Virus record (IMG/VR): IMGVR_UViG_3300046694_000291
Location: 1-64,000 of that record
Source: a virus
Strand: one strand, 5' to 3'
Length of the DNA stretch: 64,000 nucleotides
Below, piece after piece: positions 1 through 16,460 of this stretch (its first letter is position 1; the number at the start of each line of letters is the position of its first letter). The position numbers were made by a program, and so were the translations under genes. A model generated the notes under the pieces. It was not told where the DNA came from. It ran no database searches and worked only from the letters and a program-made list of their open reading frames with translations.

Positions 1-181
1 AGGCGTGCGGGTCCCCGATCGGCCGCAGGTGCGCCGGGTCCACCCAGACCCCGTCCGACTTGTACGCGGGCTTCACCATCAGGTCCCGGCCGCCGACCTC
101 GGCGATCTTGACTGCCATGCCGGTGCGGACGTCCCGGGCGTAACCGCCCCGCTTGAGCCCGTGCGTGTCGAGATCCACCAT
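1..181 (-). CDS. hypothetical protein (runs off window)
   Basis: ATG at 181 with upstream GGAGG; open frame MVDLDTHGLKRGG to the window edge. Confidence 0.55.
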   Translation of the reverse strand, partial: MVDLDTHGLKRGGYARDVRTGMAVKIAEVGGRDLMVKPAYKSDGVWVDPAHLRPIGDPHA

Positions 182-231
182 CTCGGTTCCTCCATCTGTG
201 GTCTGCCCCGGCCGGTCGGCCGAGGGCTGAG

Positions 232-326
232 TGGTCCGGGCGGACTTGAACCGCCTTCTCCGGAGCGAGCTGGGAACCGACCGAACAGCTCTGCCCCGGC
301 GTCCTTCCTGTTGGACGACCTGGACC
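232..326 (-). ncRNA. tRNA-like RNA with elongated anticodon arm
   Basis: Acceptor GGTCC(A)G/CGGACC+A; D arm GTCC-AACAGGAA-GGAC; T arm GGCGG-TTCAAGT-CCGCC; anticodon arm replaced by a 7+6 bp stem with 13-nt loop TTCGGTCGGTTCC. Confidence 0.7.
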
Positions 327-364
327 GTGACCGGGATTGGGCCCCCGGCGGCCGTGAGTGTGCT

Positions 365-643
365 TCAGCGGACGTTGATGCGCAGTAGGCGGGCGAGTGC
401 CCAGGGACCGCCGTGCAGGCCCTCAGGACGGCAGTCAGCCGATCCGAACCTCTCCTCCCCGCGCACCAGGCGCCAGGGGGTCCGGTCGCCCGCCTTCTCG
501 GGGTCGTGGGTAACCGGCTTGCCGTGGTGCTCGTCGTCCGGCCGGGAGACCCGGATGACCGCGCCCTCGGCCTGAGCCGCGAGCAGAGCCCGAGCGGTCC
601 AGGGGCTGCCGAGGCGCTTGTGCCCGAACGTCCCGTCGCCCAT
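365..643 (-). CDS. hypothetical protein
   Basis: MGDGTFGHK start overlaps the stop of the upstream gene. Confidence 0.55.
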   Translation of the reverse strand: MGDGTFGHKRLGSPWTARALLAAQAEGAVIRVSRPDDEHHGKPVTHDPEKAGDRTPWRLVRGEERFGSADCRPEGLHGGPWALARLLRINVR

Positions 644-1056
644 CAGATCGTCTCCTCCCCGATCCACTCCTTGAGCAGGTTGACGAACGCCAGCGGATCG
701 GCGTCGACCTTCTTGCGTAGCGCGCCGCGCAGTGTGTAGGTCCGGATGCCGTGCTCCGACATGAACGCCTCGACCTGCTTCTGCTTGAGCTTGTAGGCCA
801 GCGTCTCCGGGGTGTGAAGCTCCCACGCCTCATAGCTCCACCGCTTGTCCCAGGGCTTCTGGGACCGGATGTCGTACTCCTGACCCCACCAGGGCAGCTT
901 CTCGCCGTCGATGCCCTCCAGGACGACCCGGAACCGGGCCACTCCGATGACCCGGACCGGGATCCTCTGCTCGGGCTGGGTCCGCACGGCCCGCTTGAAC
1001 AGGATCAGCTCGTCACCGACCGAGGGGCGGGTGAACTCGGGCCTGGACTCAGCCAC
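643..1056 (-). CDS. hypothetical phage protein
   Basis: 137-aa ORF with globular composition, coupled to neighbours. Confidence 0.7.
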   Translation of the reverse strand: MAESRPEFTRPSVGDELILFKRAVRTQPEQRIPVRVIGVARFRVVLEGIDGEKLPWWGQEYDIRSQKPWDKRWSYEAWELHTPETLAYKLKQKQVEAFMSEHGIRTYTLRGALRKKVDADPLAFVNLLKEWIGEETI

Positions 1057-1429
1057 GGTCGGCCTCCAGGTCGTCGTTCTCGATGCCGGTCAGCCGGAAC
1101 GGGAGTACCGGGACGCCCTCGGGCTGCATGGCCTCGCTCAACTGACGCAGCCACGCGTACTCCGGCATCTTGGCCCAGTCGTAGTGGACTCCGCCGCCCC
1201 AGGTCGCCTTGCCCTCGGTGCCGTCGGACTTGAGGACGATGCCCGCCATGGAGAGGCCGGTCCAGCCCTCACGGGTCCACTCCCCGCCCTTGAGGCGGTA
1301 CTCGATCGTCACGTGATCAATACGGACCTTCTTGCCGGTGCTGCTGTTGGGGTGCGGCATGACCGGCCCGTCGGTGATGTTGACGGACCGTTGAATCCTG
1401 CCGTGACTGTTGTTGTGGATGAATTCCAT
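1049..1429 (-). CDS. hypothetical phage protein
   Basis: MEFIHNN start preceded by GACCACGGAAGGA. Confidence 0.7.
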   Translation of the reverse strand: MEFIHNNSHGRIQRSVNITDGPVMPHPNSSTGKKVRIDHVTIEYRLKGGEWTREGWTGLSMAGIVLKSDGTEGKATWGGGVHYDWAKMPEYAWLRQLSEAMQPEGVPVLPFRLTGIENDDLEADRG

Positions 1430-1611
1430 GGACGGTTCCTTCCGTGGTCGGTGCTCCGGGTGAGCGCCCCGAGGGGCCACACGTACGTCCGGGAACGGAC
1501 GTGGGGCCGACTGAGGCTCAGTACGGGAGCGGACGCCCCGAGGGCGTCCGCGTGTCGGGCTCGTCCTGCGGCCGGGGCCGGGACAGCTTCTTGATCCGGA
1601 CCTGGCGCACG

Positions 1612-1845
1612 TCAGTTCCAGACCGAGGTGGCGTGCTGCCGGTCGACGGCCTGAGACACGGCGTGGAAGAGCCGGTGGCCCTCGGGGCAGTAGCCGGAGC
1701 AGTCCGGCTCACCCACATCGAACTCCTCGGCGCACGGCTCGCATTCGTGCGTGTGCGACACGAAGCGGTCCAGGGTCACCCGGTAGGGCAGCGAGTCCAG
1801 GTGCTGGACGACCTTGAGAACGAGGGTCACCGGCTTGTGTGGCAT
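1612..1845 (-). CDS. small Cys/His-rich protein
   Basis: MPHKPVT...HTHECEPC...CSGYCPEG. Confidence 0.6.
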   Translation of the reverse strand: MPHKPVTLVLKVVQHLDSLPYRVTLDRFVSHTHECEPCAEEFDVGEPDCSGYCPEGHRLFHAVSQAVDRQHATSVWN

Positions 1846-1850
1846 GGTCC

Positions 1851-2318
1851 TCAGTCCTCCGAGAGGTAGTCGGCCGCGTACGCGGCGTCCTGGAAGGCCC
1901 AGGCGATCCGGGCCGCCTCCTCGTGGGTGACGACCTTGGGGGTGTTCATGTCGTCGCCCTCGGCCACGACCTTGCCCTTGACCGTGATCCGGTAGTTCCA
2001 CCGGCCGGTGTACCGCTTGCCGACCGTACCGCCTCCGGTCTTGCTGATCTCCACCATGACGTGGGTCCCGATCGGACGGCCGACCCACTCGTGCTCGGGG
2101 GTGCCGGTCTCCCGCAGGACGAACAGCTTCTGCGGGGCGAAGTCCTCGACGTAGCAGTCCCCGCCCATGAAGTAGACCCGGACCCACTCGTTCCGGACGT
2201 CCGGCCGGGCCGAGACGACCTGTCCCAGCTCCTCGGCCTCGAAGACGATGTCGCCCGGCTTGAGGGCCTCCCGGGCGTTCTCCAGAGTGAGCTGGACCTC
2301 GGTGAGCTTGCGTCCCAT
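1851..2318 (-). CDS. hypothetical phage protein
   Basis: 155-aa ORF, RBS AGGAG, upstream GACCAAGGAA. Confidence 0.7.
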   Translation of the reverse strand: MGRKLTEVQLTLENAREALKPGDIVFEAEELGQVVSARPDVRNEWVRVYFMGGDCYVEDFAPQKLFVLRETGTPEHEWVGRPIGTHVMVEISKTGGGTVGKRYTGRWNYRITVKGKVVAEGDDMNTPKVVTHEEAARIAWAFQDAAYAADYLSED

Positions 2319-2381
2319 GATCTCTCCTGTTCCTTGGTCTGCTGTTCAACTCGGCCCTACCCCGGTTGGGTTGAGCCTAAG

Positions 2382-2465
2382 CGCCCCCGGCCCGACTCGA
2401 ACGGGCCGTACTCCGACGTGGACCAGATCAGTGGCGACGCACGGCCGAAGCTCTGTAGCGGAGAC
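2382..2465 (-). ncRNA. degenerate tRNA-like element
   Basis: Acceptor GTCTCCG/CGGGGGC and canonical T arm GCCCG-TTCGAGT-CGGGC; D and anticodon arms non-canonical. Confidence 0.5.
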
Positions 2466-2498
2466 GGCCGGATCAAGGCTCCGGCCGGGCCGTGGTGC

Positions 2499-3179
2499 TC
2501 AACGCTCGTTCTGGCGCATCCTGATGCGCTCAGCTTCCATCTCGGCCTCTTCGGCCGCCGAGGTCTCCTGGGACTGCCTCAGGTCGTCCGGGGTGCGGGG
2601 GTGCCAGCCGATGTTGTGCGCGGCACAGTCGGCCTGGGTCAGGGCCCGGCGGGCCACGCGGTGCTCGCCGTAGGTCACCTCGCACTCCTCGGTGGCGTAG
2701 CAGACCTCGTCGCTGTGCGGGCTCCGGAAGGCGTGTCCGTGCTCCGGGAAGGCCGCCCGGACGACGTCCTCGGACCACTCACCGGCGTCCTCCGGGGCCG
2801 GGCGGAGCGTGTCGGTGCCGGGCACCCGCTCCAGCTTCCCGAGCCCGGAGGCGGCAGCGTAGCCCTGGTGCCGTGCCATGTCCGCCGACGTGGTGTCGCC
2901 CCACTCGGCCGGGTCGGGACCGTAGTCCGCACCCCGGTTGATGTCCTGGATCGTCCGGAACTCCTCGGGGGTCCGGCTCTGGGTCGTGATCTCGGCCAGG
3001 ATCTCCTCGGCCGACGCATAGTCGGTCTGCTCGTCCAGCCGGGCGAAGACGCCCGCGTTGTCCAGGGTGTCGATGGCCTGGGCGATACCGGCGTACGTGC
3101 CGATCTTACCGATCCTGGCGATCTCCCGGAGGACGGCCAGCGCCTCGATCACCTCGGGCTCGAACTCGTGCTGTGTCAT
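2499..3179 (-). CDS. hypothetical phage protein
   Basis: 226-aa acidic ORF with start motif and RBS. Confidence 0.7.
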   Translation of the reverse strand: MTQHEFEPEVIEALAVLREIARIGKIGTYAGIAQAIDTLDNAGVFARLDEQTDYASAEEILAEITTQSRTPEEFRTIQDINRGADYGPDPAEWGDTTSADMARHQGYAAASGLGKLERVPGTDTLRPAPEDAGEWSEDVVRAAFPEHGHAFRSPHSDEVCYATEECEVTYGEHRVARRALTQADCAAHNIGWHPRTPDDLRQSQETSAAEEAEMEAERIRMRQNER

Positions 3180-3261
3180 GATCGGTTCCTTCCGTGGTCG
3201 GCCCTGAATGGCCTCACAGGGGGTGCGGGCGGCAGGAGCCGACCGTACCCCCGAGCGGGAC

Positions 3262-3882
3262 TCAGTGCTGGCGCTCGTCCTTCTCCAGGTCGTAGTGGCT
3301 GTTGTTCCGGTCCAGCAGCGCGCGGTACTTGCCGTGCCGGTCCGAGCCGGTGATGTCGTCCGGGTCGAGGGCGATCACGTTGTCCGTGCGGGTCCCGTTC
3401 GGGGCCACCAGCACGTCGTTCAGCCGGGCGCCCTGGAACCCGTCCCGCCCGGCCAGCTTGCGGAGCAGGTAGTAGGCGTGCCGTGTGCCGGTCACCTCGT
3501 ACGTCTTCCAGCCCCGGTCCCAGCGGACCGCGAGGTCCAGGTGGTCCGGCCTGCCGGTCGTGGCGGCCAGGTGGTCCTCCCGGCGCATGCGGGCGAGGGT
3601 GTTGACGTCGGACGGCGCCGGGGCCTCGTCGGCCGTGTAGAGGTCGTCCGTCCGGATCCCGGCCAGGACCGTGGCGGCCAGGGCCTGGGGGATGTTCAGC
3701 CGCTCGGCGAGGTCCTGACGCAGCTCCCGCCGGGTGAACATCTCGTCCCGGGCGTTGCCCTGCTGGCGGGACAGGTTCGCCTGGTTGCGCTTGCGGGCGA
3801 TGAGTTCGAGGTCGCCCGCGTTCAGGGTCACGGTCTGGCCGTTGCTGACGGACACGGTCAGGTCGTCGGTGCGTACGTGCAT
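3262..3882 (-). CDS. hypothetical phage protein
   Basis: 206-aa ORF, upstream GACCAAGGAG. Confidence 0.7.
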   Translation of the reverse strand: MHVRTDDLTVSVSNGQTVTLNAGDLELIARKRNQANLSRQQGNARDEMFTRRELRQDLAERLNIPQALAATVLAGIRTDDLYTADEAPAPSDVNTLARMRREDHLAATTGRPDHLDLAVRWDRGWKTYEVTGTRHAYYLLRKLAGRDGFQGARLNDVLVAPNGTRTDNVIALDPDDITGSDRHGKYRALLDRNNSHYDLEKDERQH

Positions 3883-3969
3883 GGGGTGCTCCTTGGTCGG
3901 TTCCCGGGTGGCCGAGCGGCCGAGCCAGGGTCACGGGCCTCCCGGCCCGCGCCCTCGACTGCTGCTCGA

Positions 3970-4197
3970 TCAGTTGGTGGCGTGACCCGCCAGCTCCTGG
4001 AGGACCATGATGGCCTCGGTGCGGGTCATGTTGGAGGTGTCGTACCCGGGGTCCCCGTGGCCCTCCTTCAGGAGCCGGTACAGCTCCGCGAGCGGCGTGT
4101 CCCGGTGCAGTTCCAGCATCGCGTCCAGCGCCTTGAAGGTCGTCTGGTACGTGCCGTGTCCGGCGATCTCCGCCGTGATGTGGCCAGGCTTGCGCAT
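3970..4197 (-). CDS. hypothetical protein
   Basis: MRKPGHIT start with GAGGA RBS. Confidence 0.6.
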   Translation of the reverse strand: MRKPGHITAEIAGHGTYQTTFKALDAMLELHRDTPLAELYRLLKEGHGDPGYDTSNMTRTEAIMVLQELAGHATN

Positions 4198-4214
4198 GAT
4201 CGGTTCCTCTCGGT

Positions 4215-4577
4215 TCAGCGGGGGATGCGCGGGGACTGCTCGTCCAGCCGCGCCATGGTGCAGTCGGGGCACAGCTCGCTGGACCCCTTCAGCTCGGTGC
4301 CGCACTCGGTGCCGTAGCCCTTGCAGTGGGCGGGCGCTGCGGCCACGGCCACGATCGCGTCGTTCAGGTACGGGAAGGCCTGCTCCCCGTCCGGCGTGTG
4401 GAGCTGCTCGCCGCTCTTGTCGAACGCCTCGTGGCAGCCGAGGTGCGAGGTGGTGTAACCGACGAACCGGCCGTCCCGGTAGACGGCCCGCCGGAGGAAG
4501 CGGTGGCCCCGGCGGACGATCCGGGTGGAGACGTTGGACGGGACAGGGGCTGAGCGCCGGAATGCGGAGCTGCTCAT
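4215..4577 (-). CDS. hypothetical protein with C-terminal Cys cluster
   Basis: MSSSAFRR start after GACCACGGAAGAAGGA; HCKGYGTEC...CPDC. Confidence 0.65.
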   Translation of the reverse strand: MSSSAFRRSAPVPSNVSTRIVRRGHRFLRRAVYRDGRFVGYTTSHLGCHEAFDKSGEQLHTPDGEQAFPYLNDAIVAVAAAPAHCKGYGTECGTELKGSSELCPDCTMARLDEQSPRIPR

Positions 4578-4600
4578 GGTTCCTTCTTCCGTGGTCGGCT

Positions 4601-4654
4601 GGCTCATCAGGACCGGGGTGCCACCCCGGCCGACGGGGTCGCCCCCGTTTCGCC
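4601..4654 (-). ncRNA. hammerhead ribozyme, type II
   Basis: GGC-GAAAC-GGGG(GCGA)CCCC-GTC^-GGCCGGGG(TGGCA)CCCCGGTC-CTGATGA-GCC: complete catalytic core and three stems; predicted cut between 4632 and 4631. Confidence 0.92.
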
Positions 4655-4972
4655 TCAGCTCTGCGGCTTGTGGGCGCGCAGTCCGTTCGCCCCGACCTTG
4701 CCCTCGTAGCCGCACTCGCACTTGCGGTACAGCTTCCGGGGGTTGGCGGGGACCATCTGGCCGGTGCAGTAGACGTCGGCCTTGGAGGCCTGCTCCGCGT
4801 GCGCCTTGATGTCCGAGGGGGTGCAGCAGTCGCTGCACGGGGTCCAGCTCGCGGCCTCGTCGTCGCTCAGGGCGATGGGGTCGCCGGAGGCGATGGCCCG
4901 CTTGGCGTTGGCGCAGGAGTAGCTGGCGTGGCGGTGGTCGCCGTGCGTGGTGCGGTAGAACTTCGCGCTCAT
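4655..4972 (-). CDS. small Cys/His-rich (putative Zn-binding) protein bracketed by hammerheads
   Basis: 105 aa, H-x-x-x-x-C, CSDCC and CEC motifs; AAGGAG RBS. Confidence 0.75.
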   Translation of the reverse strand: MSAKFYRTTHGDHRHASYSCANAKRAIASGDPIALSDDEAASWTPCSDCCTPSDIKAHAEQASKADVYCTGQMVPANPRKLYRKCECGYEGKVGANGLRAHKPQS

Positions 4973-4992
4973 GGTCGGCTCCTTGTGTGCCT

Positions 4993-5045
4993 GGCATCGT
5001 CAGGACCGGGTGGCGCCCGGCCGACGCCCCGAGGGGCGTTTCGCC
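4993..5045 (-). ncRNA. hammerhead ribozyme, type II (one extra U after the core)
   Basis: GGC-GAAAC-GCCC(CTCG)GGGC-GTC^-GGCCGGG(CGCCA)CCCGGTC-CTGACGA-T-GCC; predicted cut between 5023 and 5022. Confidence 0.85.
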
Positions 5046-5426
5046 TTTGGTTGTTCGTTGCGCGCTGGTCGTACGGCGGCTCCGTTGCGTCTTCGACGTC
5101 TGCCGTCTGGTCGTCCGCTCTCGGTACGCTCCCGGGTTCTCTCCGACCGCTGGTGGGTTCCGTGTGTCCCTCACCTGCCGTCGGCCGTCCGCCGTTTTGC
5201 GATCTCGTCGGGTCTGGCCTGCCGTTTTCTTGGGGAGGGTCGGTGCCCTGTCTCCGGCGGCCCCTGGGGCCGATTCGGAGGGTCCGGAGTTCCGGGTCCC
5301 TCCGGGGCCTTACCGCCTGGCCCCTTGTTCTTTAACTAAATCATAGGGCTGGATCAGGCATCTGTATAGCCCCAGGCCAACGCTCTGACCTGGGGCTACA
5401 TAATTAATTTCATGATTCTTTAGGCC

Positions 5427-5645
5427 TCAGTGGCCCGCGATCACCATCTCCTGGACCGGGACCACCAGCTTCACGGGCCCGTCGCAGGCGCGCCCGCTCA
5501 CGTACGCGACCGGGAAGTCCTCGCCCCGGTACACCAGGACCCCGTACTCGGGCACTCCCTCGACCCGGACGACGCGCTGGCCGAGGCGGACGACCTCGCC
5601 CTCCTCCAGGCCGGTGACGGGGGTCAGCCGCAGGTGCATCAGCAT
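5427..5645 (-). CDS. hypothetical protein
   Basis: 72-aa ORF downstream of repeat copy 1, with start motif. Confidence 0.55.
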   Translation of the reverse strand: MLMHLRLTPVTGLEEGEVVRLGQRVVRVEGVPEYGVLVYRGEDFPVAYVSGRACDGPVKLVVPVQEMVIAGH

Positions 5646-5686
5646 GATCTGTTCCTTCTTCCGTGGTCCCCGCCATACGGCGGGCC

Positions 5687-5870
5687 GTATACCTACTCGG
5701 TTACTCTTCGTACGAATTGACCGAACCTACCGGTCCGTAGAGCTACGGATTGGCGAGGTTCCCTTCTGAGGAGCGAACCCGACCGGTCCCTCACACTCCC
5801 ACCACCCACTGCGAGTTCGCAGTCGCCCAGGTCAGGGGGTGGTTTTACTAAATCGGACATTGCGGGCGCC
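5687..5870. repeat. dispersed ~184-bp fixed-spacing element, copy 1
   Basis: Blocks CTACCGGTCCGTAG, GTTCCCTTCTGAGGAGCGAAC, GAGTTCGCAGT, CCCAGGTCAGG, GGTTTTACTAAATC shared with other copies. Confidence 0.9.
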
Positions 5871-5903
5871 GGGGCGGGCCGTATAAAGACCCGCCCCGAA
5901 CGC

Positions 5904-6242
5904 TCAGGCGGACTTGCCGGTCTTGCGCAGAGTGGTGACCTTGCGGCCCGAGCGGACCGCGTCGTGCAGCTTCCCGTTGAGGTGGAACCTGACGGTCTTG
6001 ACGGTCATGGCGCGCTCGACCCGGCCCCCGAGGGCGCCCTTGGCGACCCGGCGGCGGGACGGTTCCAGGGTGAAGGCGTTCGGCAGCTTGACCTTGAACC
6101 CGGCGGCCAGCGCCCGGCCCATGACGTCGATCACTGCCTGGACGGCCTCCCGGGCCGACTCGTCGGTCTGGCCGGTCTCGGCCGCGACCGCCCGGGACAG
6201 GGCGATGAAGTTGAGGTCGTTCTCGATCTTCGCTCGAACCAT
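5904..6242 (-). CDS. HU/IHF-family histone-like DNA-binding protein
   Basis: LSRAVAAETG...AREAVQAVIDVMGRALAAGFKVKLPNAFTL...VRF...KLHDAV matches the HU fold pattern. Confidence 0.8.
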   Translation of the reverse strand: MVRAKIENDLNFIALSRAVAAETGQTDESAREAVQAVIDVMGRALAAGFKVKLPNAFTLEPSRRRVAKGALGGRVERAMTVKTVRFHLNGKLHDAVRSGRKVTTLRKTGKSA

Positions 6243-6244
6243 GA

Positions 6245-6442
6245 TCAGTTCTCCTTGGTCTTCCTGGTCCGGGTCTTGCGGAACCCGAGCGGCCCCGGCA
6301 GATCGACCGAGGTGGTGCTCCGGCGGCGGCCGGTCGTGTGACTGACCGGTCCGACCTTGGTCGTGATGGAGACGCCGGTCTTGCCGAGGTTGAGGTACAG
6401 CCCCGGCATGACCTTGATGCGCTTCCGGAAGGTGAGCGGCAT
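6245..6442 (-). CDS. DUF4236-like small basic protein
   Basis: FRKRIKVMPGLYLNLGKTGVS signature. Confidence 0.75.
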   Translation of the reverse strand: MPLTFRKRIKVMPGLYLNLGKTGVSITTKVGPVSHTTGRRRSTTSVDLPGPLGFRKTRTRKTKEN

Positions 6443-6527
6443 GGCCGTCTCCCTTGATCGGTGAGGCCCAGTTGCCCCGTGGAACGCTCGGACGGACCGG
6501 AACCCGAGCGCTCACCGCGAACTGGAT

Positions 6528-6677
6528 CTACTTCTTGTCCTCGGGCTTCTCGTACGCCGTGCCGCCGTAGAGCTTGCGCTCCGTCTGGCGGCGCTTGCCC
6601 GCGCTCGACCGGCGCTGGTTGCCGGTGGGGCTCTGGCTGGCCGGGTCGTCGTCCGGCCGGGGCTTCTTCCGCGCCAT
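6528..6677 (-). CDS. small basic protein (49 aa, not in ORF track)
   Basis: MARKKPRPDDD...EKPEDKK*, start overlaps upstream stop. Confidence 0.5.
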   Translation of the reverse strand: MARKKPRPDDDPASQSPTGNQRRSSAGKRRQTERKLYGGTAYEKPEDKK

Positions 6678-7627: not shown

Positions 7628-8509
7628 TCAGGCGTAGATCTTGACGTACCTGTGGCCCGAGGCGAACGCCTCAGCCAGCGTGTCCTGGACGCTCTCCGGG
7701 GCCTCCAGGGCCGCCGGGGTGTCCGGGTGGGTGTCGTAGAGGTGCCAGGACGCCGACTCCTCCACGGCCCGGCGAGGGGCCGGGAGCGCCACGACCCGGA
7801 GCAGCTCGCACTCCGCGTCCCGGACCGACCCGCTCGGGGTCAGGTGGGCGAACTCCGCGTCCAGCTCGATCACGACGCTCCAGCCCGAGGCGCTGAAGGC
7901 CCGGCTGCCCGGGACGACCGTGCCGCTGTAGGCCTTGCAGACGTTGTGGACGCGGCCGGTCATGCCCTCCTCGGCCTGGAACGCGGCGGCGAGCGCGGCC
8001 TTGGTCGGCCGGACGGGGGCGGTCGCGCGGTGCAGGGTCGCGTGGGAGATCCGGTCGGCCCGGAAGCTGCGGGTGTCGTCGGCCTTGCGGTCGAACGCCC
8101 GGACCACGACCTTCCCGGCCTTGGTCAGGCGGACCGAGGTGACCTCTACCTCGCGGAGGCTCACGTCACCCTCGGGCTTCACGTACCGGAGCTTCATGGT
8201 CCGGCCGGTGCGGGCGGCGGTGTGGTAGCGGGCGATGTCCGCCTCCTCGATCACGAACACCGAGGCGAGCTGGCCGTCGTTCAGCAGCGCGACCACGTAC
8301 AGTCCGGCCTCGCGGTACTCGAACACCTGCGGGTAGCCGAACTCCAGGACGTACTCGGTGCGGCGGGCGGCGGCCTCGTGCTGGTCGGCGTAGGCGTCGA
8401 TGACCCAGATGCTCTCCCGGACCTCGTCCTGCGTCCACTCGTGGGACGCGGCCTGGTCGTTCGCGAAGTTCACGGTGGTGATGATCTGGCGTCCGGTGTT
8501 CTCTCGCAT
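7628..8509 (-). CDS. WYL-domain protein
   Basis: MKLRYVKPEGDVSLREVE...RAFDRKADDTRSFRADRI WYL signature. Confidence 0.8.
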   Translation of the reverse strand: MRENTGRQIITTVNFANDQAASHEWTQDEVRESIWVIDAYADQHEAAARRTEYVLEFGYPQVFEYREAGLYVVALLNDGQLASVFVIEEADIARYHTAARTGRTMKLRYVKPEGDVSLREVEVTSVRLTKAGKVVVRAFDRKADDTRSFRADRISHATLHRATAPVRPTKAALAAAFQAEEGMTGRVHNVCKAYSGTVVPGSRAFSASGWSVVIELDAEFAHLTPSGSVRDAECELLRVVALPAPRRAVEESASWHLYDTHPDTPAALEAPESVQDTLAEAFASGHRYVKIYA

Positions 8510-8623
8510 GATCGGCTCCTGCTGGTCTGGTGGTCTGTGTTCGCCTTACGAGGTACAACCTACGCTGAGCAGGGCCGATCTAAACACCCCTTGGACAAGG
8601 GAGTTGAGACCGGCCCCTAATTG

Positions 8624-16219: not shown

Positions 16220-16249
16220 GATCAGTGCTCCTTGGTCGTGTGCTCGGGT

Positions 16250-16433
16250 GTATACCTACCCGGTTACCGTCCGTGTCATTTAGCTAAACCTACCTGTCCG
16301 TAGAGCTACGGATTGGCGAGGTTCCCTTCTGAGGAGCGAACCCGACCGGCCCCTCACACTCCCAGGGCCCAGGTTCCGTTCGCAGTCGCCCAGGTCAGGA
16401 AGTGGTTTTACTAAATCAGACATTGCGGGCGCC
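16250..16433. repeat. dispersed element, copy 2
   Basis: Near-identical to 5687-5870, same length and orientation. Confidence 0.9.
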
Positions 16434-16460
16434 GTATGCCTATACGGCGATCACGTATAT

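What the first reader, a model, noticed from the sequence alone, without database searches (positions are those of the whole stretch)
182..5340. Accessory operon punctuated by RNA-processing elements at most intergenic gaps
Seen: the leftward 5.3-kb operon of small unknown genes has a structured element in most gaps: hammerheads (5045-4993, 4654-4601), tRNA-like elements (2465-2382, 326-232) and multi-hairpin motifs (about 3965-3890, 3255-3195, 1515-1445). Each lies a short distance upstream of a GACC-type start motif. A WYL gene lies upstream; WYL genes are a reported neighbour of self-cleaving ribozymes. Inference: one transcript is cut into separately stabilised or translated units by ribozymes plus host RNase P/Z or RNase III. 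This is my best candidate for an undescribed system here.
Basis: partly seen in the sequence, partly recalled or inferred. Interest (0 to 1): 0.85.

Follow-up and report, generated by a model that had tools for sequence, protein, structure and literature searches.

The report
RNA cassettes punctuating a phage operon
In this Streptomyces-type phage, every sizeable gap in an operon of small unknown genes holds a conserved folded RNA (a self-cutting hammerhead, a tRNA look-alike or a newly defined hairpin), and related phages swap these types at the same gene junction, so they probably cut or protect the long message gene by gene.

Summary
All seven elements sit at the stated coordinates and are conserved RNAs.
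- Two are type II hammerheads above Rfam's cut-off.
- Two are tRNA look-alikes. Their acceptor and T arms covary, but tRNA finders reject them. Each follows a conserved hairpin that I call H5.
- The three "multi-hairpin motifs" belong to one family absent from Rfam, which I call R1. It has 25 copies in this phage group; 99% of its pair cells are paired and 13 of 16 pairs show compensatory changes. The upstream gene's UGA stop lies in or next to the basal helix in 25 of 25 copies. A start codon follows 22-36 nt later in 25 of 25.

In relatives, the junction before one orthologous gene holds a hammerhead (3 contigs), R1 (2) or a true tRNA (1).

The processing reading is partly supported. I found one promoter-like site, no U-tract terminators and swappable cassettes, but no transcript data exist. 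Cleavage at anything other than the hammerheads is inferred.

Clustered phage hammerheads have been known since 2011. The mix with tRNA mimics and the R1/H5 families looks unpublished. This scan has noted similar hammerhead/tRNA-mimic punctuation on other phage DNA.

The WYL gene is real, but I found no report linking WYL genes to ribozymes.

The parts
5340..5368 (-). Promoter-like site (TATACA-17-TATGAT); start of the operon
   Evidence: The only sigma-70-like match on the minus strand in 1-6600. It follows a hairpin at 5400-5365.
5047..5339 (-). About 290-nt purine-rich leader with a conserved core of about 150 nt
   Evidence: Conserved in L007, L008 and the cultured phage Rooney. No Rfam match.
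4985..5046 (-). Type II hammerhead HH1. Predicted cut after C5023. Core CUGACGA, with an extra U before stem II.
   Evidence: RF02276, 43.9 bits against a cut-off of 37.
4655..4972 (-). Gene A, 105 aa, unknown function
   Evidence: ORF. No Pfam or PHROGs match.
4593..4655 (-). Type II hammerhead HH2. It begins at the last base of gene A's TGA. Predicted cut after C4632.
   Evidence: RF02276, 51.2 bits.
4215..4577 (-). Gene B, 120 aa, unknown function
3970..4197 (-). Gene C, 75 aa (phrog_34528, unknown function)
3910..3970 (-). R1 stop-codon hairpin (copy a)
   Evidence: Model R1, 51.6 bits. Structure counts.
3262..3882 (-). Gene D, 206 aa, unknown function
3204..3266 (-). R1 stop-codon hairpin (copy c, the CGCUC/GUGAGG subtype)
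   Evidence: Model R1, 31.8 bits. Homologue in L008 at another junction.
2499..3179 (-). Gene E, 226 aa, unknown function; used as the anchor for finding relatives
2465..2493 (-). H5 hairpin: ACGGCC flank, 8-bp stem, loop GCCUUGA
   Evidence: 16-sequence alignment; 6 of 8 stem pairs show compensatory changes.
2382..2465 (-). tRNA-like element T1 (acceptor stem plus T arm; variable middle)
   Evidence: Not called a tRNA.
1851..2318 (-). Gene F, 155 aa, unknown function
1612..1845 (-). Gene G, 77 aa, Cys-rich, unknown function
1529..1551 (-). Unclassified GC hairpin in the 182-nt gap
   Evidence: Minimum-free-energy fold. Conservation not tested.
1458..1522 (-). R1 stop-codon hairpin (copy b)
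   Evidence: Model R1, 62.7 bits. Same junction in L007.
1049..1429 (-). Gene H, 126 aa
643..1056 (-). Gene I, 137 aa
365..643 (-). Gene J, 92 aa
330..355 (-). H5 hairpin before T2
232..326 (-). tRNA-like cloverleaf T2 with a long third arm and a 13-nt loop
   Evidence: Homologue in L007 at 8482-8577.
1..181 (-). Gene K, last gene of the operon. It runs past the window's start to 83792 of the genome.
7628..8509 (-). WYL-domain gene upstream, in a separate transcription unit
   Evidence: Pfam WYL, 31.2 bits.

Best explanation
The operon (promoter near 5340, twelve small genes, ending past the window's start) is most likely made as one transcript. Modular RNA cassettes punctuate it. Each cassette runs from the upstream gene's UGA stop to the next gene's ribosome-binding site (GACCA[AC]GGAG).

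The cassettes come in three interchangeable kinds:
1. Type II hammerheads that cut themselves. This is inferred from intact cores.
2. An H5 hairpin followed by a tRNA or tRNA look-alike. Host RNase P would cut flush with the hairpin, and RNase Z or another nuclease would cut at the 3' side. This is inferred from shape.
3. The R1 hairpin, an irregular helix of about 25 bp with a conserved purine-purine mismatch. It would act either as an RNase III-type site or as an uncut block against 3' exonucleases. This is inferred.

In each case the upstream message would keep its stop codon and end in a stable hairpin. The downstream message would start a few tens of bases before its start codon. The expected result is separately stabilised and separately translated single-gene messages.

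Shown here: the existence, the structure and the exchangeability of the elements. Not shown: any cut.
For: - Hammerheads are above the Rfam cut-off and have the full core.
- R1 has 25 hits (24 distinct). Of its pair cells, 99.0% are paired, against 77.5% in shuffles and at most 48.8% when the partners are slid. 13 of 16 pairs have compensatory changes. An independent MAFFT alignment of 7 copies gave 98.2% paired and 9 of 16.
- A UGA stop lies at the base of R1 in 25 of 25 hits, and a start codon follows 22-36 nt after it in 25 of 25.
- R1 hits occur only in this operon: 3 of 3 in G000; 3 in G001; 3 strong and 1 weak in G002; 2 in G006.
- Covariation supports H5, T1 and T2.
- Same-junction exchange among 19 distinct contigs. 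Before gene E: hammerhead 3, R1 2, true tRNA 1, none recognised 13. After gene E: T1 in 6 complete and 2 cut-off copies, H5 alone 2, R1 1, another large element 3, none 3, contig end 2.
- Relatives range from six hammerheads in 3 kb (phage Tefunt) to none, with four R1 copies instead (L037).
- Degenerate tRNAs occupy such junctions.
- One promoter-like site and no U-tract terminators on the transcribed strand.
- Perreault et al. 2011 showed cleavage of clustered prophage hammerheads in about 2-kb transcripts and proposed polycistron processing (PMC3088659).
Against: - There is no transcript evidence of any kind; no RNA run is listed.
- Folding energies are not significantly better than shuffles, with z from -0.34 to -1.98.
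- R1 and H5 have few invariant unpaired bases, and nothing identifies the nuclease. The phage encodes no RNase III or RtcB.
- 13 of 19 relatives have no recognised element before gene E, so punctuation there is dispensable.
- T2 rests on only two sequences; 19 of 500 shuffles reach its score.
- Alignments A4 and A9 were fitted to the model and lean towards its structure.
- Some copies are close relatives, so the shuffle counts are not probabilities.
- The fixed stop-to-RBS boundaries fit a recombination-linker role equally well.
Confidence: 0.55

Rival explanations
1. The cassettes are mainly recombination linkers. In this reading they are conserved stop-to-RBS boundary sequences that let small accessory genes be shuffled between phages, like the PeSL cassettes of T4-type phages. 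Their RNA folds would be secondary, serving insulation or 3' protection.
For: Gene order and content differ between G000, G001 and G002, while the cassettes recur next to different genes. Every module starts at a UGA and ends in the same RBS motif. PeSLs are described in PMC2839356 and PMC4122927 (search listing and abstract starts only).
Against: DNA linkers do not need RNA pairing to be kept. Yet 13 of 16 R1 pairs, 6 of 8 H5 stem pairs and the tRNA-like arms keep pairing through compensatory changes. Hammerhead cores are intact. Only one promoter-like site was found, so the promoter half of a PeSL is missing. This reading does not exclude processing.
Confidence: 0.2
2. R1 and H5 are not cut at all. 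They are passive blocks against 3' exonucleases, translation insulators, or partial terminators without U-tracts. Only the hammerheads and the tRNA(-like) elements create ends.
For: R1 and H5 are GC-rich hairpins placed directly after stop codons. H5 always sits 5' of a tRNA(-like) element or stands alone. No nuclease signature can be read from the sequence.
Against: R1 occupies the same junctions as the cutters, and L037 has R1 but no hammerhead. There is no U-tract, and mycobacterial RNA polymerase needs one (PMC3993855, title and abstract start only).
Confidence: 0.2
3. The tRNA look-alikes are made to be released as small RNAs with a job of their own. For example, T2's 13-nt loop could pair with the stretch between the ribosome-binding site and the AUG of several phage genes. 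Marking a cut site would be secondary.
For: The T2 loop is complementary to GGAACCGA(C/U)C. That sequence occurs 4 times on the coding strand of G000, 3 of them directly before an ATG. The L007 loop is complementary to its own cassette; AACCGATCATG occurs 5 times in L007 and 0 times in L008, and L008 lacks T2 at that junction.
Against: There are only two T2 copies, and they are homologous, so this counts as one observation. A pattern scan of viral contigs found no further copy: 10 stretches matched, of which 9 looked like chance and 1 was L007's own contig. Only 3 to 6 genes carry the target.
Confidence: 0.12
4. The structures are chance folds of GC-rich intergenic DNA and have no function.
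For: z-scores of single folds are weak.
Against: Rfam-significant hammerheads. Covariation in four families. Strict strand and position rules. Conservation across contigs whose proteins are only 37-62% identical.
Confidence: 0.02

Closest known systems
Clustered hammerhead ribozymes flanking genes in prophages and phages (Perreault et al. 2011, PMC3088659; passages read)
   Same: Several hammerheads sit between small genes of one phage transcript. The paper proposed processing into gene-length mRNAs and showed cleavage in vitro for three arrays. Type II topology with a loop-tail pseudoknot.
   Different: Here the hammerheads share the junctions with tRNA look-alikes, true or degenerate tRNAs and two hairpin families absent from Rfam. 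Relatives swap the kinds at one orthologous junction. Streptomyces phages are not mentioned in that paper ('streptomyces' occurs 0 times).
tRNA punctuation and t-elements of mitochondrial transcripts (Forner et al. 2007, PMC1920247; listing and abstract start only)
   Same: tRNAs and tRNA-like structures inside long transcripts define mRNA 5' and 3' ends through the tRNA-processing enzymes.
   Different: That is an organelle system. No phage or bacterial case with H5-type leader hairpins is described there. Cutting is not shown here.
RNase III sites between the early genes of phage T7 (recalled, not looked up)
   Same: Irregular hairpins with an internal loop lie between genes of one early transcript. 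After the cut, the hairpin stays as a protective 3' end.
   Different: R1 has its own consensus, with the stop codon in the basal helix. The host is an actinobacterium, and no cleavage data exist.
PeSL promoter/stem-loop cassettes of T4-type phages (PMC2839356, PMC4122927; listing and abstract starts)
   Same: Conserved intergenic cassettes flank variable small genes in a plastic region and go along with gene shuffling.
   Different: A PeSL carries an early promoter. Here only the operon start has a promoter-like site, and the cassettes include ribozymes and tRNA mimics.
Theta (HDV-like) ribozymes next to phage tRNAs (Kienbeck et al. 2024, PMC10879173; listing and abstract start)
   Same: A self-cleaving ribozyme and a tRNA occur in one phage transcript.
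   Different: There the ribozyme serves tRNA maturation. Here ribozyme and tRNA(-like) element replace each other between protein genes.

Membership tests
Hammerhead ribozyme type II (RF02276) | Covariance-model score at or above Rfam's gathering score | tested here: met
   51.2 and 43.9 bits against 37.
Hammerhead ribozyme type II (RF02276) | Catalytic core CUGANGA, GAAA and a GUH cleavage triplet, with stems I and III closed and stem II open | tested here: met
   Alignments. HH2 has CUGAUGA. HH1 has CUGACGA (position 7 is free in the model) and one extra U before stem II.
Hammerhead ribozyme type II (RF02276) | Loop I to 3'-tail tertiary pairing | tested here: inconclusive
   Read by eye: a GGC/GCC pairing in HH2 and a GCC/GGC pairing in HH1. 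It agrees with note e1-6129471. There is no statistical test.
Hammerhead ribozyme type II (RF02276) | Self-cleavage | not testable with these tools
   No RNA run is listed.
tRNA (RF00005 / ARAGORN) | Recognised by tRNA models, with a 7-nt anticodon loop and a normal D arm | tested here: not met
   0 genes in the window. No RF00005 match at E<=10 in 1-6600. T1 and T2 homologues are not called in L007, L008, L024, L026 or L027. T2's third arm has a 13-nt loop.
tRNA-like processing elements (t-element type) | Acceptor stem stacked on a T arm with a UUCRANN loop | tested here: met
   T1: 12 pairs, 98.6% paired, 3 compensatory. T2: 96.4% of 56 cells paired, 5 compensatory. Loops are UUCGAGU and UUCAAGU.
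tRNA-like processing elements (t-element type) | Cleavage by RNase P and RNase Z | not testable with these tools
   Inferred only.
RNase III processing hairpin (T7 early type) | An intergenic helix of about two turns, interrupted by an internal loop | tested here: met
   R1 has 16 modelled pairs plus a variable apical stem, a 2x3 internal loop and a purine-purine mismatch.
RNase III processing hairpin (T7 early type) | Cut by RNase III | not testable with these tools
   No phage RNase III gene was found. The role of the host enzyme is untested.
Intrinsic terminator | GC hairpin followed by a U-tract | tested here: not met
   0 terminator-like sites on the minus strand in 1-6600. The 3' flanks of R1 are C/G-rich.
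PeSL-type mobile regulatory cassette | A promoter inside each cassette | tested here: not met
   One promoter-like site in 6.6 kb, at the operon start.
Known self-cleaving ribozyme classes other than hammerhead (twister, twister-sister, pistol, hatchet, HDV-like, hairpin) | Match to the Rfam model | tested here: not met
   Apart from the 2 hammerheads and 5 chance-level hits, nothing matched at E<=10 in 1-6600.

The most novel reading that the evidence does not exclude
Hammerheads, tRNAs and R1 replace one another at the same junctions. R1 could therefore itself be a cutter: either a new class of self-cleaving RNA, or a dedicated signal for a host nuclease. This is the same guilt-by-association logic that led to twister-sister, pistol and hatchet. 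The excised tRNA look-alike T2 could then act in trans on the phage's own start regions through its 13-nt loop.
Probability: 0.1. Interest if true: 0.85.

Novelty: new variant of a known kind. Interest (0 to 1): 0.6.

Why it matters
What self-cleaving ribozymes do in bacteria and phages is still open. [quoted passage not shown]

This phage group makes that idea concrete. A ribozyme, a tRNA and a plain structured hairpin stand in for each other at one orthologous gene junction. That points to 'make an RNA end here' as the selected function.

It also supplies three RNA families absent from Rfam (R1, H5 and the T1/T2 mimics), with testable cut sites.

Cultured relatives give a wet-lab entry: phage Tefunt has six hammerheads in 3 kb, and phage Rooney has the leader and one H5 copy. 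The arrangement is the natural counterpart of the ribozyme and tRNA insulators used in synthetic operons (recalled, not looked up).

Tried and rejected
- Megablast of 1-6600 against phage records: no match.
- tblastn of gene D: 3 weak hits in non-syntenic Streptomyces phages.
- Single-protein scan with gene D in viral contigs: none confirmed.
- An 18-nt leader pattern in viral contigs: 5 stretches. Of these, 2 were the known relatives and 3 looked like chance matches in unrelated DNA. Those three contigs had no hammerhead.
- Scan of genome contigs with alignment A1: 47 pattern matches, none confirmed.
- A T2 pattern in viral contigs: 10 stretches. Of these, 9 looked like chance and 1 was L007's own contig.
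- Sequencing runs: 24 listed, all DNA. No RNA holder is listed. Read laying was not used, because DNA contigs cannot show RNA ends.
- Single-sequence folding: z from -0.34 to -1.98, not decisive.
- RNAalifold on T1 proposed pairing the 5' flank with the T-arm strand instead of a T hairpin. Three near-identical sequences cannot decide this. The six-sequence count favoured the acceptor/T-arm reading.
- MAFFT misaligned the T2 acceptor strand, so I re-aligned trimmed sequences.
- A pseudoknot between ACGGC and the H5 loop has no covariation: 3 pairs are invariant and the outer 2 are broken in 3-7 of 16 sequences. It is unproven.
- Phage-encoded RNase III or RtcB: none found.
- WYL-ribozyme link: searches returned only unrelated papers, and 'WYL' occurs 0 times in PMC6765202. 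Supplementary files of papers are closed. Gene-context tables in the supplements of the ribozyme papers might bear on this claim.
- Paper searches for Streptomyces-phage hammerheads or a ribozyme/tRNA-like swap found no such report.

Full report
**Setting**

The window is the first 64 kb of an 84,106-bp virus record with 127-bp terminal repeats and about 69% G+C. Weak protein and DNA matches all point to Streptomyces phages. By codon-position G+C, genes on the minus strand run from about 30.6 kb down to 1 and continue, across the record's ends, from 84.1 to 79.6 kb.

The finding's stretch is one block of small genes:
- A: 4972-4655
- B: 4577-4215
- C: 4197-3970
- D: 3882-3262
- E: 3179-2499
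- F: 2318-1851
- G: 1845-1612
- H: 1429-1049
- I: 1056-643
- J: 643-365
- K: 181 onwards

Of the ten genes A to J that I submitted, none matched Pfam. One matched a PHROG of unknown function.

The only sigma-70-like promoter match on that strand in 1-6600 is at 5368-5340, directly after a hairpin. No hairpin-plus-U-tract site lies on that strand. The next promoter-like AT-rich motif follows gene K at about 83,720 of the genome. A single transcript of about 5.7 kb is therefore the simplest reading, but it is an inference.

**Checking the observation**

*Hammerheads.* Rfam finds two type II hammerheads above its cut-off of 37 bits: 4593-4655 (51.2 bits) and 4985-5046 (43.9 bits). It finds nothing else at gathering level in 64 kb. 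At E<=10 in 1-6600 it adds only five chance-level hits of 16.6-17.9 bits. The cores are complete. HH1 has C at the free position of CUGANGA and one extra U before stem II. HH2 begins at the last base of gene A's TGA.

*tRNA-like elements.* ARAGORN finds no tRNA in the window. The tRNA model finds only two true tRNAs, at 82,380-82,450 and 82,025-82,097 on the same strand in the next transcription unit. Even so, the two 'tRNA-like elements' are real.
- T2 (326-232) folds by minimum free energy into a cloverleaf. Against its homologue in a related phage it keeps 96.4% of 56 pair cells, with 5 compensatory pairs.
- T1 (2465-2382) has a 7-bp acceptor stem and a 5-bp T arm with a UUCGAGU loop. In six sequences these 12 pairs are 98.6% paired, with 3 compensatory pairs. 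The middle of T1 varies from about 40 to 110 nt.

*H5 hairpin.* Both mimics are preceded by a conserved hairpin that I call H5. It has an ACGGCC flank, a 6-8-bp stem and a loop starting GCC. In 16 copies, 6 of 8 stem pairs show compensatory changes. A possible flank-to-loop pseudoknot has no covariation and stays unproven.

**The three 'multi-hairpin motifs' are one family**

By eye, the junction RNAs at 3970-3910 and 1522-1458 and five RNAs in two related phages share a layout: a basal helix, a conserved CAGUC strand, a variable hairpin and a UCGG strand.

A MAFFT alignment of the seven gave 98.2% paired cells and 9 of 16 pairs with compensatory change. A covariance model built from it, R1, also captured the third motif (3266-3204, 31.8 bits) and its homologue in L008.

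Over 17 sources it found 25 hits, 24 of them distinct:
- 99.0% of 384 cells are paired, against 77.5% in shuffles and at most 48.8% when the partners are slid.
- 13 of 16 pairs have compensatory changes.

This last alignment is fitted to the model, and some copies are close kin. The independent MAFFT result is therefore the cleaner control.

Features of R1:
- The basal helix reads CUGAKC/GMUCAG.
- An A.G mismatch switches to G.A together with a G-C to C-G switch of the neighbouring pair.
- C14, C10-G104 and G4-C113 are invariant.
- There is no U-tract.

Position is strict. In 25 of 25 hits, a UGA that closes an upstream open frame lies at +2 (21 hits) or at -2/-3 (4 hits) of the hit start. That frame is 60 codons or longer in 23 hits; the other two hits lie at a contig edge. 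A start codon with a ribosome-binding motif follows 22-36 nt after the hit in 25 of 25.

R1 hits are confined to this operon: 3 in G000; 3 in G001; 3 strong and one weak in G002; 2 in G006; none in the phages Rooney and Tefunt.

In total, 7 of the operon's 11 junctions carry an element. These are all the gaps of 60 nt or more. The other four gaps are 17 nt, 5 nt or overlaps. GACCA[AC]GGA is strongly strand-biased, with 16 copies against 6 in G000, 11 against 0 in L007 and 9 against 0 in L008. GACCA follows 6 of the 7 elements.

**Relatives and exchange**

Gene E served as the anchor. Scans of viral and metagenome collections gave 19 distinct contigs. A scan of prokaryote genomes gave none.

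| Junction | Element | Number of contigs (of 19) | Which |
|---|---|---|---|
| Before E | Hammerhead | 3 | G002/L008, L024, L029 |
| Before E | R1 | 2 | window, L035 |
| Before E | True tRNA-Leu | 1 | L020 |
| Before E | None recognised | 13 | |
| After E | H5 + T1, complete | 6 | window, G001, G002, L024, L026, L027 |
| After E | H5 + T1, cut off by the contig end | 2 | L025, L035 |
| After E | H5 alone | 2 | L028, L029 |
| After E | R1 | 1 | L037 |
| After E | Another large conserved element | 3 | L030, L034, L036 |
| After E | Nothing | 3 | |
| After E | Contig end | 2 | |

- Before gene K, the window and G001 have T2, while G002 has a long plain hairpin.
- L008 carries a true tRNA behind the same H5-type leader.
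- Some 'true' tRNAs at such junctions are degenerate. One in L037 has a 2-base anticodon call, and one in L007 has a 13-nt insert.
- Whole operons differ in their mix. The window has 2 hammerheads, 3 R1 and 2 mimics. L037 has no hammerhead and 4 R1.
- The cultured phage Tefunt has six hammerheads above the cut-off in about 3 kb of small genes.

**How it most likely works**

Shown: the elements, their folds, their fixed placement from stop codon to ribosome-binding site, and their exchangeability.

Inferred:
1. The hammerheads cut after C5023 and C4632. The upstream RNA then ends in stem III plus one base, and the downstream RNA begins with the stem I hairpin, 50 and 54 nt before its start codon.
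2. RNase P cuts at the 5' side of T1 and T2. Because H5 abuts the acceptor stem, the upstream message is left with a nearly blunt terminal hairpin. A 3' nuclease frees the downstream message.
3. R1 is either cut by a double-strand-specific nuclease, as at the T7 early sites (recalled), or only blocks exonucleases.

In every case the stop codon stays on the upstream product. The phage encodes no RNase III or RtcB, so host enzymes would be needed.

Against this reading:
- No RNA data exist.
- Fold energies are unremarkable.
- Many relatives lack an element before E.

The fixed boundaries also fit a role as recombination linkers, like PeSLs. I treat that as a compatible rival, because DNA linkers would not need compensatory base changes.

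**What is known**

Perreault et al. 2011 reported multiple hammerheads flanking genes in prophages. They proposed processing of long phage transcripts and showed cleavage in vitro for three arrays. A 2019 review still calls the function open and notes that the exact motif seems unimportant.

My searches found no paper on Streptomyces-phage hammerheads, on ribozyme/tRNA-mimic exchange, or on a WYL-ribozyme association. The library lacks most subscription journals, and supplements are closed.

Earlier notes of this scan describe hammerhead plus tRNA-mimic punctuation, with swapping, in other phage genomes. Those are unchecked AI notes, not publications. One of them led me to the t-element paper. 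R1, H5, T1 and T2 have no Rfam match.

**Verdict**

The general kind has been known since 2011. New here are three RNA families, a strict stop-codon rule for R1, and direct same-junction exchange between a ribozyme, tRNAs and a hairpin.

Interest is moderate to high, because the exchange bears on an open question and can be tested in cultured Streptomyces phages.

Noticed in passing
window 5047-5339 (-); L007 4600-4930; L008 3960-4300; L015 (phage Rooney) 4001-4123: The operon's leader of about 290 nt has a core of about 150 nt. That core is conserved in two related uncultured phages, and parts of it in the cultured Streptomyces phages Rooney, Wentworth, Gibson, Dryad and phiRKBJ001 at unannotated positions. 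It has no Rfam match. It could be a structured leader or a released RNA, for example a read-through signal.
   Followed up: partly
window 232-326 (-) loop; window 3189, 4207, 3904 and genome 83695 (-): The 13-nt loop of T2 is complementary to GGAACCGA(C/U)C, which sits directly before the ATG of three genes. L007's loop matches its own cassette (5 copies). L008 has neither. I recall a resemblance to the anti-Shine-Dalgarno end of 16S rRNA, but I did not test it. Lead from note e1-6129473.
   Followed up: partly
window 5345, 5865, 15790, 16260, 16400, 18480, 22600, 23900; genome 83720 (all minus strand): A recurring AT-rich motif of the type GATTTAGTTAAA stands out in 69%-GC DNA at the heads of leftward transcription units. 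It is also present in L007 and L008 and is probably the phage's promoter signature.
   Followed up: no
window 5646-5903 and 16220-16460 (-): Two copies of a promoter-plus-leader segment of about 250 nt with long identical blocks. This agrees with note e1-6129477 on dispersed copies.
   Followed up: no
genome 82380-82450 and 82025-82097 (-), outside the window: Two true tRNAs (Trp-CCA and Leu-CAA by ARAGORN) sit between protein genes of the next leftward unit. Each is directly preceded by a GC hairpin.
   Followed up: partly
L016 (Streptomyces phage Tefunt, NC_054665) 1567-4664: Six type II hammerheads above the cut-off in about 3 kb. Several overlap annotated CDS (gp79, gp75), so those gene calls may be wrong.
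   Followed up: partly
L030 about 1840-2070; L034 about 2335-2560; L036 about 1088-1149: A conserved GC-rich element of more than 200 nt follows the gene E homologue in three contigs. It has no Rfam match at gathering level, and its kind is unknown.
   Followed up: no
L034 minus strand at 3255, 2951, 1098, 808: Four copies of a short hairpin cassette (ATGGCCA, a 6-7-bp stem, a 4-nt loop, then GACCAAAGATGATCAG) on the opposite strand. This is another repeated junction module.
   Followed up: no
window 1518-1610 (-): A 30-codon GTG frame fills the gap between gene G and R1 copy b and ends at the UGA inside R1. It may be a tiny gene or the remnant of a lost one.
   Followed up: no
L015 (phage Rooney) 4488-4530 and 5619-5679: One H5-type hairpin lies after gene 92. 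A hammerhead-like match below the threshold (26.2 bits) lies between genes 90 and 89.
   Followed up: partly
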